64,000 bases of DNA, taken from Octopus sinensis. Lineage: Eukaryota. A program made the translations under genes and the position numbers. Location of the stretch: positions 89,838,001 to 89,902,000 of the forward strand of contig NC_043002.1 of the NCBI RefSeq assembly GCF_006345805.1, written 5' to 3'. The notes beneath the pieces are model-generated. The model ran no database searches. It saw only the letters and a program-made list of their open reading frames with translations, and was not told the origin of the DNA. Shown here in pieces: positions 1,449 through 48,594 of this stretch (its first letter is position 1; every line of letters begins with the position of its first letter).

Positions 1449-2768
1449 ATACCCAAAAAAGGTGATTTGTCCCTTGTCACCAACTACAGGGGCATATCTC
1501 TAATGTCAATTGCTGCAAAACTGTACAACAAACTGATCCTAAATCGTCTTGTCCTTTTTGTTGAACCTTTGCTCTGAAAGAACCAAAATGGATTCAGACA
1601 TGGGCGCTCAATGCTGAGCCAGATACTATGCCTGCGCAGACTTATTGAAGAATCAAAAGCATTTAATCACGATCTTGCAATGGTATTTGTAGACTTTTCT
1701 AAAGCGTTCGATTCTGTAGATAGGTACAAGATGTTTGAAATCCTTAAGCTCTATGGGATACCAGACAAAATTATTTCTGCCATCAAGGTCCTCTACACAG
1801 ATACGTCTTCAACCATCTTAACCCCTGATGGAGAAACATCATCTTTCTCGATCGAAGCCGGAATACTGCAGGGAGACACACTCGCCCCATTTCTTTTCAT
1901 CATTGTTGTTGATTATGTGCTACGTATGTCAGTTGATACCATCTCTGGCAAGGGCTTTGAAATAAAACCAAGAAGAAGTTCCAGACACCCAGCTGAGTAC
2001 TTGACAGACACTGACTTTGCTGACAACATCGCTCTTATCAGTGATTCTCTCTCCAATGCCCAGTCTCTTTTACAATCTCTTGAACAAGCCTCAAATTGTG
2101 TAGGTCTTTACCTCAATGATGCCAAAACTGAATACATAAACAAGTGCCTGTCCAACAGTGATTGCATCATCCACACTCTCAACAGTGCACCTTTAAATAT
2201 GGTTTCTGATTATAAATATCTTGGGTCATACATATCATCATCTGGAAAAGACTTTCTAACTAGAAAGGGTATGGCCTGGTCAGCCTGTAATGACATGCAT
2301 AAGATCTGGTCATCAAATCTAAGTAGAGACTTCAAACTTGAAATATTCAAAGCCACAGTCGAACCAATCCTACTATATGGCTCAGAAACCTGGACGTTAT
2401 CAAAGAAGCTTGAGAGGCGGTTGGATGGAACCTACACTCGCCTCCTTATGAGAGCTCAAAATCTCTCGTGGAGGCGCCATCCAACTAAAATGCAAATGTA
2501 TGGGAAATTACCACCTGTGTCATCTCTTGTGAAAGGTAGGAGAGTCCAGTTTGCTGGACATTGTTGTAGAGCTGAAAAAGAAGTAATTTCTACTCTTCTC
2601 CTCTGGAAGCCATCTACTCGCAACACCAGAGGGCGCACACTCTCCTACCCTGATGTAATCTCCAGGGATACAGACATCCAGCAACAGGACCTCCGTAATG
2701 CTATGATGGACCGTGAAGTCTGGCGCAACATAGTAAATTCCATTGTCTCGACCACGGTCGAACAATGA
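1449..2768 (+). pseudogene. Reverse transcriptase ORF, inactivated
   Basis: One in-frame TGA at 1575-1577; catalytic (F/Y)ADD reads FADN at 2016-2027; no endonuclease domain because of the 5' truncation. Confidence 0.88.
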
Positions 2769-4935: not shown

Positions 4936-5972
4936 ACATTTGGGCTATTAAATGAACCCAGTCTTTGTAACACAACACCGGCAAGACAATAAACCCTGTT
5001 TTCTGTGTAACAATGGAATTCACCCAAACATCTTACTATGGTAAAAATTTAATCTTCAGAAATTGCATGTCATGGATAAATTTCCCAAGAATATTTCACA
5101 AAAACAGTCTATTTATATACTGACAATAAGAACCAGGTTAGAAATGTAGTTCAGTGGAAACGGATGTTTTTATTTTATTTAATTGAATAATTTCAACTTT
5201 ATTCCCAGTTGTAGTTATTCAGCCCCAGGTCAACCCTGATTATGCACACCTATTATCTGGTCACTACTGCTGTTCTTGTTAACCCTAAATTGTCCTGGTT
5301 ATGGTGACTAATGACTGAAAAGTTGTGTAGCTATGACTGTTGTCTTTACCCTTTATCTTTTTTTTTTTCAGGAACATATATCCTTCTAACTTACACTACA
5401 TCATGCAACATGTTCTTTTGTTAAGGCTGTAGAATATAGTTTAAGGGAGATTTGGCTGCTATTTCTAGCAGATCAGATGGCTGGTTTTCAACATGCTGTG
5501 GTGTTACATTGTGAGATCTGAACACAGACAGAAAACTGTGTCAGTGAGGGAACTAAGCTAATCTTAACTGACCTAAGGCCTTGTGTTGGTGCTGATTGCT
5601 GGTGGTTTCTGCCGAAACGGTGTTTCATGGCTGACTTTTGATTGATTTAGCAGTTAAGACATCGATTGTGTTTTGAGGTTAGATGTCTGTACTTGATACA
5701 TTAACTCAGTTAATTGATAGACTGGCTTCTGTTTAGCTGGACAGTGGCCATGCAGTAGCGAAGGATGGAGTATAGCAGAGTATATGTGTGTATGTGTGTG
5801 TGTGTGGGGGGGAGAGTATATGGACTGTGTTGGGAGTATTTAAGTGTGTGTGGAAGTGTATTACTGTGTATGGGGGTATGGTGTATAGTATAACAAAGTG
5901 TATCTTTGTGCGTATGAACTGTATGGGGGAGTATAGTGAAACAAGTATGAAGTATATCATGCGAGTGTGTGG

Positions 5973-25969: not shown

Positions 25970-27237
25970 CAGGGGTTGGACAAAATAATGGAAACATCTA
26001 GCATCATAATTTTGAAATATCTATAAAAATCATCAAAAGCTTGTTTATTTTTATGCCTTTTTTGATTTATTAATAGTGTGTTTAATATGTTTTGCCAAAA
26101 TTGCTGTTTCTTTTCAGATATGAGAAAAAAGGTAATTAAAATTCATTAAAATGACAGATCTATTGAACTTTCAAAGAGGTCAAAATGTTTGGTGCTCATA
26201 TGGCAGGTGCTAGCATAAGGAAAAACAGCCGAAATGTTTGGTGTATTAAGAAGTACCCTCTTGAAAATAATGATAGCCCTTGAGAAAGAGGGAAAAACCT
26301 CTGTGTTGAAACAAAACTCCAGAAGAAAACCAAAACTTTCAGATAGGGACTGCCGAACTCTTACTTGAATTGTTAGAAAGGATCACAAAAATGCAGCTCC
26401 CAAAAGTACTGCAGAGTTTAATGACCACCTTGAGAACCCAGTTTCCACAAAAACTGTTCACTGGGAGCTGCACAAAGCTGGATTTCATGGGAGGGCAGCA
26501 ACCAGAAAACCACTACTTTCAAAAACAAATGTTACAAAGCATTTAGAGTGGAGTAAAAACCTACAGAATTGGTTCCTAGAGCAGTGGAAGAATGTTATTT
26601 TCTTGGACGAGTCATCATTTACCTTATTTCTGACCACCAGCCGAGTATACATGTGGAGACAGCCAAAAGAAGCATTTGGCCCAGATTGCCTTCTTCCAAC
26701 TGTTAAACTTGGAGAAGGATCTGTGATGATCTGGGGGTCTGTATTTTGGAAATCTGCCAGCCCATTGGTTTTCCTTCATGGCAGAATTAATAGTCAAGGT
26801 TATTTTAGCATTTTATCTGATCAAATTCATCCTATGGTTGCAGAACTGTTTCCGGAAGGAAACACAATCTTTCAGGATGATAATGCACCAATTCACACAT
26901 CTAAAGTTGTTACTGAATGGCATGAGGAACATTCTAGTGAAGTTGAACATCTTATCTGGTGACGTTAGTCCCCAGATCTCAATATTACTGAACATTTATG
27001 GTGCATTTTAGAAAAAACAAGTAAGGAGTCGATATCCTTCACCAGCATCACTACAAGAACTGCAGACTGCTTTAGCTGAAGAATGGACAAAAATTCCTTT
27101 GGAAACAATTCAAACTTTGTACGAGTCCATACCTTGTAGAATTCAAGCTGTAATTACTGCCAAAGGTGGTCCTACCCGATATTAAAATAAGCTTATTTGA
27201 AATTTGAAGGTGTTTCCGTTATTTTGTTCAACCCCAG
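25970..27237 (+). mobile_element. Full-length decayed Tc1-family DNA transposon (about 1.27 kb)
   Basis: TIRs of about 30 bp, CAGGGGTTGGACAAAATAATGGAAACA and TGTTTCCGTTATTTTGTTCAACCCCAG; TA on the right side. Confidence 0.9.
26151..27185 (+). pseudogene. Tc1-like transposase, DD36E spacing, with stops and frameshifts
   Basis: N-terminal FQRGQ helix-turn-helix start, DESSF, VMIWG, FQDDNAPIH, W*R*SPDLNITEHLW and C-terminal AKGGPTRY*. Confidence 0.88.
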
Positions 27238-35637: not shown

Positions 35638-35659
35638 TGAGTCTGTGTGTGTGTATGTG

Positions 35660-35944
35660 TGTGTGTGTCTTGTGTTTGCCCACCTACTTGTCAGCCCACC
35701 TACTTCTGTTGGTTTGTATATGTCTGTAACTTAGTGGTTTGGCAAAAGTGACAAAGGATATACCAGACTGAAAAACTACACTTATTCACACACATTACAA
35801 TATATATACACACACACGCACACACAAAATAAAACATGACAAAAGAACACATGTTGACAGTAGAACACATGCACACATACACACAGCAGAATGCACACAG
35901 ACAGTACAACCAGTAAATGAGAAGAGAGAGAGACACACACACAT

Positions 35945-35993
<49 letters not shown>

Positions 35994-36408
35994 CACTATG
36001 GTCAGTTTGTTAAAATTAAACTTTTCAAGCTGGTTGCCCTTATCATAGCTGCAGTTCAATAACTAAAGTAAGTAAAAGAAAGGCAAAATATTTCCTGCTC
36101 TGTATGTGTGTGTGTGTGTATGTGGTGTGTGTCTTGTGTTTGCCCACCTACTTGTCAGCCCACCTACTTCTGTTGGTTTGTATATGTCTGTAACTTAGTG
36201 GTTTGGCAAAAGTGACAAAGGATATACCAGACTGAAAAACTACACTTATTCACACACATTACAATATATATACACACACACGCACACACAAAATAAAACA
36301 TGACAAAAGAACACATGTTGACAGTAGAACACATGCACACATACACACAGCAGAATGCACACAGACAGCACAACCAGTAAATGAGAAGAGAGAGAGACAC
36401 ACACACAT

Positions 36409-36457
<49 letters not shown>

Positions 36458-36872
36458 CACTATGGTCAGTTTGTTAAAATTAAACTTTTCAAGCTGGTTG
36501 CCCTTATCATAGCTGCAGTTCAATAACTAAAGTAAGTAAAAGAAAGGCAAAATATTTCCTGCTCTGTATGTGTGTGTGTGTGTATGTGGTGTGTGTCTTG
36601 TGTTTGCCCACCTACTTGTCAGCCCACCTACTTCTGTTGGTTTGTATATGTCTGTAACTTAGTGGTTTGGCAAAAGTGACAAAGGATATACCAGACTGAA
36701 AAACTACACTTATTCACACACATTACAATATATATACACACACACGCACACACAAAATAAAACATGACAAAAGAACACATGTTGACAGTAGAACACATGC
36801 ACACATACACACAGCAGAATGCACACAGACAGCACAACCAGTAAATGAGAAGAGAGAGAGACACACACACAT

Positions 36873-36925
<53 letters not shown>

Positions 36926-37045
36926 CACTATGGTCAGTTTGTTAAAATTAAACTTTTCAAGCTGGTTGCCCTTATCATAGCTGCAGTTCAATAACTAAAG
37001 TAAGTAAAAGAAAGGCAAAATATTTCCTGCTCTGTATGTGTGTGT
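35660..37045. repeat. Three near-identical tandem copies of a 464-bp unit
   Basis: Near-identical ORFs at 35700, 36164 and 36628 give a period of 464; copies differ mainly in (CA)n length. Confidence 0.95.
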
Positions 37046-37070
37046 GTGTGTATGTGTGTGTGTGTGCATG

Positions 37071-40022: not shown

Positions 40023-40258
40023 CAGAGTGACCCAAAAGTAGGTTTACAGTTATTCAACTATCTCTTTTGCATTCATATCTTAACAGTTTAGATCTTAAAT
40101 ATGAAAAAATATGAAACCGTTATTCTATGCTAATTTACTTAATTTTGTCAAGCTCCGTTTTCATTTTGTAAGATAGAAATTTAAATGTAATAAAATATTC
40201 TAAAAGAAATTTCAAATGCCTATGTGATAACTGTAAACCTACTTTTGGGGCCACCCTA
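40023..40258. mobile_element. Tc1/mariner-type MITE
   Basis: TIRs CAGAGTGACCCAAAAGTAGGTTTACAGTTAT and ATAACTGTAAACCTACTTTTGGGGCCACCCTA; TA on both sides. Confidence 0.85.
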
Positions 40259-40474
40259 TATATATGCATATATACATACGTCTATGTACATACTTACATT
40301 TATACGTATATATATATATATATATATATAAATATAAGAGAGTTAACGTTAAGTGGCTAACTCTAGTGCTAGAAATAGCTCCTTATTCTGGTATAGCCAC
40401 CGAAGATTGTTTCCACAGAAGAAATAACATTACCTTCAACGTAAGGGAAGCGAAATACAACGAAAAGATAGATT

Positions 40475-40552
40475 AATACTGAACAATTGTTTCTTTATCA
40501 ACATAATATGCAATTATACTCACATATATGTCTATAATTCATCAGCAGTATT
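40475..40552 (-). ncRNA. Candidate type I hammerhead ribozyme, canonical core
   Basis: Minus strand: AATACTG-CTGATGA-(AT-rich stem II region)-GAAA-CAATTG-TT-CAGTATT; perfect 7-bp stem I, palindromic stem III, GUU cleavage triplet; stem II is weak. Confidence 0.65.
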
Positions 40553-40753
40553 TGTTCTCGATACAATTTATCAGACCCACACGGGCGATAAAATACTCAT
40601 GCGGTCTGATTGATTGCATACATAGTTGTGGTTTAGCTTCCCGCCAAAAGCATGCTAAGACTCCGTGGAAATCAATACCGCATACAATATTTGCTGCAGC
40701 ATACTTATTTTATAAATTTATAAATGAGGGTGAAAAATTAGATATTAATTTAA

Positions 40754-40946
40754 CCCTTTATATATTCTACATGTTTTATATTCAAACTGGCGAGGTCTAG
40801 CCTCTCACACCTAACCTACAATGCCATTCTAAAAATAAGTAATCACATCATTGAAACCTCAAAGCTGTAAGATGATCCAGGATTAATTCAAAACAATTTG
40901 AGTGAAAAAGTATTACATTTAACAGAGTAATCTGAACACTAAAGGG
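40754..40946. mobile_element. TTAA-flanked piggyBac-type MITE nested at the inversion junction
   Basis: TTAA|CCCTTTA ... TAAAGGG|TTAA. Confidence 0.8.
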
Positions 40947-41084
40947 TTAAGAGTTAGCCACTTAACGTTAACTCTCTTATATTTATGTATAAATTTGTAC
41001 TGTCTCCCTGGTTTCTATGTGCTAGGCCACTTGGTGTTAAACTGACGATATTATTAAATTAATATCTAATTTTTCACCCTCATT

Positions 41085-41132
<48 letters not shown>

Positions 41133-48251: not shown

Positions 48252-48594
48252 GGGCCTCCCAACTGATTGGCATGAAGTTAATCACACTCCAGCCTCTCTT
48301 GGGCCTCCCAACTGATTGGCATGAAGTTAATCACACTCCAGCCTCTCTTGGGCCTCCCAACTGATTGGCATGAAGTTAATCACACTCCAGCCTCTCTTGG
48401 GCCTCCCAACTGATTGGCATGAAGTCAATCACACTCCAGTCTCTCTTGGGCTTCCCAACTGATTGGCATGAAGTTAATCACACTCCAGCCTCTCTTGGGC
48501 CTCCCAACTGATTGGCATGAAGTTAATCACACTCCAGCCTCTCTTGGGCCTCCCAACTGATTGGCATGAAGTTAATCACACTCCAGCCTCTCTT
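48252..48594. repeat. 49-bp minisatellite, 7 copies
   Basis: GGGCCTCCCAACTGATTGGCATGAAGTTAATCACACTCCAGCCTCTCTT repeated almost perfectly; no spacers. Confidence 0.97.

What the first reader, a model, noticed from the sequence alone, without database searches (positions are those of the whole stretch)
40328..41090. Hammerhead-containing element whose two inverted halves close into a ~490-nt circle
Seen: after removing the nested TTAA MITE, the locus is A-[hammerhead]-B-A'-x-B', with A/A' and B/B' perfect 37-bp inverted pairs. In ribozyme-sense orientation one half reads B'>hammerhead>A' (426 nt, minus strand) and the other A'>x>B' (141 nt, plus strand). They overlap at both ends and define a circularly permuted unit of 426+141-74=493 nt with one hammerhead. 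Established: retrozymes are non-coding hammerhead retroelements that spread through circular RNAs, and Penelope insertions often carry inverted pseudo-LTR pieces. Inference: this was copied from a circular or tandem RNA template with a strand switch, and may be a cephalopod retrozyme-like family.
Basis: partly seen in the sequence, partly recalled or inferred. Interest (0 to 1): 0.75.

Follow-up and report, generated by a model that had tools for sequence, protein, structure and literature searches.

The report
Two-armed hammerhead retrozyme, Penelope footprint
This is one copy of a non-coding repeat of about 490 bases with a predicted self-cutting (hammerhead) RNA fold; it sits in TA microsatellites as two back-to-back arms ending at two different fixed points, a footprint that Penelope-type jumping genes also leave and that likely means their enzyme copies it, while the neat circle seen at this locus is probably chance and a circular RNA is untested.

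Summary
The anatomy is as described: two exact inverted pairs (37 and 38 bp), a TTAA-flanked MITE at the arm junction, a type I hammerhead fold and a 493-nt unit. The unit is real. In 135 loci of this genome it recurs permuted, tandem and inverted, and none of the 111 loci screened is joined to a Penelope ORF. Stems covary across lineages down to about 70% identity.

The real signal is not the 37/37 overlap (1 of 54 inverted loci). Of 203 free 3' ends, 187 fall at two fixed sites about 104 nt apart, mostly against (TA)n. All 54 inverted insertions with both ends at a site pair one of each. A coding Penelope-like family here does the same with a 38-nt tail (9 of 9).

Best reading: a non-LTR retrozyme copied by a Penelope-type enzyme priming from both cut strands. 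A circular template is plausible (about 50%) but unshown. Cleavage is untested, Rfam finds no hammerhead, and this copy has an A-A mismatch closing stem II. This scan noted the same pattern before on other DNA, including this genome.

The parts
40257..40336 (.). (TA)n target microsatellite, left; its last bases overlap the arm end (microhomology)
40328..40753 (-). Left arm, unit positions q1-426; 3' end at fixed site S1 (40328), 5' end a truncation at the arm junction
40328..40364 (-). A' (37 nt ending at S1), exact inverted match to 40950-40986
40475..40552 (-). Type I hammerhead fold: 7-bp stem I, core at 40545-40539, long stem II closed by an A-A mismatch, GAAA at 40493, 2-bp stem III with palindromic loop; predicted cut 40482/40481
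   Evidence: not found by Rfam
40716..40753 (-). B' (upstream copy of the S2 end), exact inverted match to 41054-41091
40754..40946 (.). Later, independent MITE of 193 bp between duplicated TTAA (40750-53, 40947-50); this copy is shorter next to its left end than its relatives
40950..41090 (+). Right arm, q390 through q493 to q37; runs 37 nt past S1; 3' end at fixed site S2 (41090)
40987..41090 (+). The roughly 104-nt stretch between S1 and S2, counterpart of the Penelope 'tail'
   Evidence: compared with PMC11167929 and PMC8557442
41085..41129 (.). (TA)n target microsatellite, right

Best explanation
It is a head-to-head, two-armed insertion of a non-coding 493-nt hammerhead repeat (a non-LTR retrozyme) into a TA microsatellite, likely made by a borrowed Penelope-type RT-endonuclease that would nick both target strands and prime each on a different fixed site of the repeat's RNA. 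Shown: the family, the two fixed 3' ends S1 and S2 about 104 nt apart, the one-of-each pairing, variable 5' truncation, the TA target, and the later MITE. Inferred: a dimeric enzyme holds a folded RNA that presents both sites, each an AU-rich stretch just 3' of a hairpin with a similar CUC...AUUUAUG motif. Both cDNAs stop at variable points and join by microhomology. The template spans more than one unit and is uncut at the hammerhead, so it is a ligated circle or an uncleaved multimer; I put the circle at about 50%. The hammerhead would cut best as a dimer, and perhaps poorly in this young lineage.
For: 187 of 203 free 3' ends lie at S1 (81) or S2 (106), with TA-rich flanks at 64 of 81 and 76 of 106. 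Of 68 head-to-head loci, 54 have both ends at a site, and all 54 pair S1 with S2 (27 each way round). 30 of the 54 came from the hammerhead-pattern sample, which does not select for ends, and all four lineages are represented. Eight more pairs in older lineages, read by eye, agree. A coding RT + GIY-YIG family in the same genome ends in (TA)n at two sites 38 nt apart, one of each in 9 of 9 classed pairs. PMC11167929 shows in vitro that a Penelope-like protein cuts and extends both strands and starts at two internal RNA sites that bound the tail. Hammerhead stem I pair 4 is paired in 99 of 105 motifs with four Watson-Crick types, and H17 is never G. 27 cells show double changes, reached by 0 of 500 shuffles. 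The dimer co-fold opens the core while the monomer misfolds. Five units fold more stably than shuffles, z -2.1 to -6.1. 133 of 190 arms cross the cut site, and 120 of 132 scored crossings have no indel there.
Against: No coding partner shares sequence with the unit, and the one coding family whose ends I mapped has a 38-nt tail, not 104 nt. Rfam does not call the hammerhead. The pair closing stem II is mismatched in 79 of 105 motifs, including this copy. Core conservation in those 105 motifs is built into the search pattern. In one search the two measures that count pairs or pair types did not beat the shuffles (254 and 104 of 500). 14 of 68 head-to-head loci have one end off-site. Only 4 of 190 arms hold two whole hammerheads, which a circle would need as its source. 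The units of the long array L256 share variants in a patchwork, which one circle would not give. One RNA versus two RNAs per insertion is not resolved.
Confidence: 0.8

Rival explanations
1. One reading: the locus is one pass round a 493-nt circular RNA with a strand switch, and the two 37-nt overlaps record the closure of the circle.
For: The overlaps are exact and equal here. Equal overlaps occur in 2 of 54 loci (this one and L020, 87/89) against 0.13 expected. Duplicated stretches within one arm agree at 394 of 402 lineage-diagnostic positions. L035 carries a private variant in all three units. Circles are shown for other animal retrozymes (PMC7229834).
Against: This locus was picked for its symmetry; without it 1 of 53 remains. 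The S1 arm passes the upstream S2 in only 9 of 54 loci. Neither arm here can be a copy of the other. L256 is a patchwork.
Confidence: 0.12
2. The pieces are ordinary truncated pseudo-LTR ends of a coding Penelope-like element not yet found, and no independent retrozyme exists.
For: The footprint is the classical Penelope one (PMC8557442, Fig. 2 legend). Short 5'-truncated ends are common in the coding family here. Only the best 150 of 5029 endonuclease candidates were scored.
Against: Long arms run unit into unit for up to about five units with no ORF. The longest ATG-started frame in three joined units is 80 codons, antisense. Penelope ORF fragments lie near a few loci (L026, L032, L053, L129, L147, L266) but beyond a TA tract, in opposite orientation, or hundreds of bases away.
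Confidence: 0.05
3. One cDNA is primed and the second end is made by endonuclease resolution or a DNA-level rearrangement at the other AU-rich site, not by a second priming event.
For: PMC8557442 (passage) ascribes the tail to endonuclease-mediated resolution. In 34 of 54 loci the S1 arm lies wholly within the S2 arm, and 7 of 54 junctions start both arms at nearly the same place.
Against: In 20 of 54 loci, including this one, the S1 arm holds sequence the S2 arm lacks. The three exact same-start junctions sit on short palindromes, as microhomology joining predicts. PMC11167929 maps RT starts to both ends of the tail.
Confidence: 0.03

Closest known systems
Metazoan non-LTR retrozymes (Cervera and de la Pena 2020, PMC7229834; Li, Clavereau and Pollet 2026, 10.64898/2026.07.22.740005)
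   Same: Non-coding, low-GC (31-34%), self-paired unit with one type I hammerhead; monomers and short tandems; co-occurs with coding Penelope-like elements; hammerhead likely to need a dimer, as in axolotl.
   Different: The unit of 490-535 nt is above the 170-400 nt of PMC7229834 but inside the 51-972 bp of the preprint. Most copies hold one hammerhead or none. Stem II closure is non-canonical in young lineages. The passages and parts I read report no fixed priming sites or paired inverted arms. No homologous pseudo-LTR was found here, and circles are not shown.
Insertion units of endonuclease-bearing Penelope-like elements (PMC8557442; PAc in vitro, PMC11167929)
   Same: 5' truncation, partial tandems, inverted head-to-head copy, tail at one end only, AT-rich or (TA)n target, two internal start sites downstream of a hammerhead, uncut template used.
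   Different: No ORF; tail about 104 nt rather than 30-40 nt; starts lie on AU-rich stretches that match the target (TATA microhomology), whereas PAc starts in an AC-rich loop not homologous to the target.
Non-autonomous Chlamys elements such as MRC1 (PMC8557442, passage)
   Same: Non-coding elements that form pseudo-LTRs and head-to-tail copies through a Penelope-like enzyme.
   Different: Those resemble their coding partners at the 3' end, and the paper's abstract says this clade lacks canonical hammerheads; here no partner with shared sequence was found.

Membership tests
Metazoan non-LTR retrozyme | Type I hammerhead motif in each unit | tested here: met
   Core, three stems and covariation. 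Caveats: stem II closing pair mismatched in 79 of 105 motifs; no Rfam call.
Metazoan non-LTR retrozyme | Short tandem-repeated unit of a few hundred bases, low GC, non-coding, no LTR arrangement | tested here: met
   493-nt unit, GC 0.34, arms up to about five units, longest ATG frame 80 codons antisense.
Metazoan non-LTR retrozyme | At least two consecutive whole hammerheads at some loci | tested here: met
   4 of 190 arms plus L256; the window copy has one.
Metazoan non-LTR retrozyme | Self-cleavage of the RNA | not testable with these tools
   Only folding predictions.
Metazoan non-LTR retrozyme | Expression as linear and circular monomer RNA | tested here: inconclusive
   No holder on record as RNA; only contigs could be laid.
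Penelope-like element, autonomous | RT plus GIY-YIG ORF between pseudo-LTRs | tested here: not met
   No ORF in the unit or contiguous with any screened copy.
Penelope-type insertion footprint | Two alternative 3' ends bounding a tail, tail on one arm only of inverted insertions | tested here: met
   187 of 203 ends; 54 of 54 pairs.
Penelope-type insertion footprint | Tail length 30-40 nt | tested here: not met
   About 104 nt; the coding family in this genome has 38 nt.
Penelope-type insertion footprint | AT-rich or microsatellite target and 5' truncation | tested here: met
   TA-rich flank at 140 of 187 site ends; 5' ends spread over the whole unit.
Retrozyme derived from a pseudo-LTR (preprint's model) | Sequence homology to the pseudo-LTR of a coding element | tested here: inconclusive
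   None in 30 endonuclease loci or 15 longer stretches; most of the 5029 candidates were not examined.

The most novel reading that the evidence does not exclude
A circular 493-nt ribozyme RNA has evolved two look-alike priming sites about 104 nt apart that fill both active sites of a Penelope-type dimer. One RNA circle is copied from both cut DNA strands at once, the trailing polymerase displacing the leading one's primer. The strict one-of-each pairing would then be the genomic record of how animal retrozymes move and of how Penelope inverted ends arise.
Probability: 0.3. Interest if true: 0.75.

Novelty: new member of a known kind. Interest (0 to 1): 0.5.

Why it matters
Which enzyme moves animal retrozymes is open in print. 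PMC7229834 names Penelope-like elements only as a strong candidate, and the 2026 preprint says the mechanism remains to be elucidated and allows local amplification instead. Here a retrozyme family carries the Penelope insertion footprint in countable form, beside intact candidate enzymes that use the same target and rule. That gives exact start sites to test in the existing in vitro assay, and a long tail that separates the two starts better than the usual 30-40 nt. The footprint itself is described qualitatively for coding elements (PMC8557442).

Tried and rejected
Rfam gave nothing at gathering score and only chance-level non-hammerhead matches at E up to 10.

Expression: no RNA holder was listed. 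Laying four contig sets on L035 showed coverage only, nothing on strand, ends or circles.

A pile-up of 5' ends at the hammerhead cut was looked for and not seen: 3 of 190 arms in q265-280. An apparent pile-up near q175 is partly a mapping artefact at an indel; a few main-lineage ends sit at a small hairpin there, which I did not test for significance. Stops of one arm at the other's start site, a possible collision sign on a circle, were too few to test. Equal arm lengths occurred in 0 of 54 loci.

Private-variant and diagnostic-site tests could not separate one RNA from two: arms of one insertion differ at 31 of 674 diagnostic positions, against 28% between loci. Shared 5' flanks among 63 single arms gave four pairwise matches, not followed further. 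The consensus fold has no helix that requires a circle.

Paper searches: retrozyme + octopus, hammerhead ribozyme + cephalopod, and Penelope tail or inverted with twin priming, both strands, or only one end. By title and abstract start, none showed a report of this family or a count of the pairing rule. Most subscription papers and the bioRxiv supplements are outside these searches, and the preprint's family tables could bear on novelty. The earlier-findings search by sequence was blank.

Full report
Observation. The locus reads (TA)n - A - hammerhead (minus strand) - B - MITE - A' - x - B' - (TA)n. A/A' match exactly over 37 bp and B/B' over 38 bp; the halves are 426 and 141 nt. The 193-bp insert between two TTAA is a separate, young, very abundant family. 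It sits on the last four bases of the left arm, one of about ten TTAA in the element, so it came later. I number the 493-nt unit q1-493 from 40753 downwards. The left arm is q1-426, the right arm runs from q390 round to q37, and the predicted cut follows q272.

The family. Searches of the own genome G000 gave 782 and 752 first-look candidates (40 scored each). An exact hammerhead pattern gave 134 matches against 0 controls, and a looser one gave 274 against 2. These are lower bounds, not copy numbers. I collected 157 loci and dropped 22: 21 repeat fetches or flank-sharing duplicates, and L137, which had no match to the unit. That left 135. They fall into at least four lineages, 71-98% identical to the window copy, all with a 490-510-nt unit. 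Of 20 further loci of older type, 17 match the unit, some with a 535-nt period, and 3 do not. Arms run unit into unit: 32 of 190 exceed 560 nt, and L256 holds about five units. Penelope-type protein queries against 100 fetched loci (these include repeat fetches, 91 distinct in all with L137) and 20 more hit fragments near six distinct loci. None was continuous with the unit. The 57 loci were not screened this way.

The ribozyme. On 105 pattern matches (core fixed by the pattern), stem I pair 4 is paired in 99, as A-U, U-A, C-G, G-C or U-G. The second pair of stem II switches between U-A (82) and C-G (20), and H17 is U, C or once A, never G. On 22 representative motifs, 94.6% of cells pair and 27 show double changes, reached by 0 of 500 shuffles; the two pair-count measures did not beat the shuffles. 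Stem III is 2 bp with a palindromic loop. The monomer's best fold buries the core, while the two-copy co-fold leaves it open (-39.8 against two times -14.9 kcal/mol), so a dimeric hammerhead is the likely active form. Against it: Rfam is silent, and the pair closing stem II is mismatched in 79 of 105 motifs, A-A in this copy, whereas some older lineages have the canonical G-C. That G-C favours activity is recalled knowledge. The whole unit folds more stably than shuffles in 5 of 5 lineage representatives, with compensatory pairs in a rod around the hammerhead and in a domain enclosing S1.

The insertion rule. Of 203 free 3' ends, 81 lie at S1 (about q426-430), 106 at S2 (about q37-40) and 16 elsewhere; most site ends abut (TA)n. 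In this count I kept only the first two arms of L023, L039 and L183 and one copy of L207. Both sites read CUC...AUUUA(U/C)G followed by a TATA-like stretch that matches the target, and both follow a predicted hairpin. Of 68 head-to-head loci, 14 have one end off-site; the other 54 all pair S1 with S2. The 5' ends scatter over the whole unit, and 57 of 61 two-arm junctions lie between 13 nt of overlap and 12 nt of gap by BLAST ends. Both fall at 25-50 nt in 1 of 54 loci. Equal overlaps occur twice (shuffled expectation 0.13, p 0.007), but one of the two is this locus, chosen for that property. In 20 of 54 loci the S1 arm holds sequence the S2 arm lacks, and in 51 of 54 the S2 arm holds sequence the S1 arm lacks, so in this locus and its like both arms were templated separately.

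The likely enzyme. G000 has 147 scored GIY-YIG matches. Of 15 longer stretches, several hold intact 775-781-residue frames with RT and GIY-YIG matches, in at least three families. The L153-type family ends in (TA)n at two sites 38 nt apart. Among 57 loci chosen by one end, 9 had a classed inverted partner, and all 9 used the other site. No DNA similarity links these families to the unit, so the partner is unnamed.

Mechanism. Shown: family, sites, pairing, target, truncation, later MITE. From the literature: PAc protein cuts and extends both strands, starts at two internal RNA sites bounding the tail, is predicted to be a dimer, and uses uncut RNA (PMC11167929; parts 1-2 of 4 read). Inverted copies with a 30-40-bp tail often at one end only are described for Penelope-like elements (PMC8557442; passages). 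Inferred: both nicked strands prime, one at S1 and one at S2, and the truncated cDNAs join by microhomology. The S2 arm passes S1 in 52 of 54 loci, which on one RNA needs strand displacement.

Circle or multimer. 133 of 190 arms cross the cut, nearly all without an indel, so the template was a ligated circle or uncut. For a circle: repeated stretches within an arm agree at 394 of 402 diagnostic positions across many lineages, and L035 has one private variant in three units. Against: sources with two hammerheads are rare, and L256 is a patchwork. I leave it at about even.

Comparison and novelty. It meets the sequence criteria of a metazoan non-LTR retrozyme (PMC7229834, passages; preprint 10.64898/2026.07.22.740005, parts 1-3 of 5 and a term search). 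Cleavage and circles are untested. It works like a Penelope insertion but has no ORF and a longer tail. My paper searches showed no report of this family; other hits were seen only as listings. After I had reached this reading (recorded), earlier notes of this scan showed the same two-site, two-arm pattern on other DNA, twice in this genome. They are unchecked notes and did not change the score.

Surroundings. Of 85 longer open frames in the window scanned (of 264 listed), two matched Pfam, an RT fragment and a Tc1-type transposase fragment, both far from the locus. Short exons would be missed.

Verdict. A real, young retrozyme insertion with a strict Penelope-type footprint. It is a new member of a known kind. 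The circle is not shown by this locus. Interest 0.5.

Noticed in passing
L153:674-4374, L158, L154:2245-5318 (G000): Two intact-looking Penelope-like families have a second, overlapping upstream open frame (479 and 280 residues, no Pfam match above cut-off) before the RT-endonuclease frame, although the papers read describe a single ORF.
   Followed up: partly
L153 about 5350-5385: The 3' end of the L153-type coding family has a hammerhead-like motif with a changed core (U for C3, A for G8) about 65 nt before its first end site; stem I was not convincing.
   Followed up: no
L154 about 5924 (minus) and L164 about 3159 (plus): Two further type I hammerhead motifs, unrelated in sequence to this unit, near Penelope-like ORFs.
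   Followed up: no
window 40754-40946: The MITE family is very abundant and young (4139 candidates, top 40 at 97-99% identity); this copy is shorter beside its left end and sits exactly at the arm junction.
   Followed up: partly
older lineages, e.g. L253, L256, L257, L261: Older lineages keep a G-C or G-U pair closing stem II, while the youngest have mismatches; this may mean relaxed need for cleavage.
   Followed up: partly
L266:1953-4000: A retrozyme arm and an L154-type coding element are stacked in the same TA tract, showing a shared target.
   Followed up: partly
window 35644-37065: 3.1 tandem copies of a 464-bp unit at 99% match; a recent local duplication or an assembly artefact.
   Followed up: no
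window 48252-48594: Seven copies of a 49-bp unit at 97% match.
   Followed up: no
window 1578-2765 (+) and 26369-26959 (+): A 396-codon reverse transcriptase frame and a Tc1-type transposase fragment.
   Followed up: no
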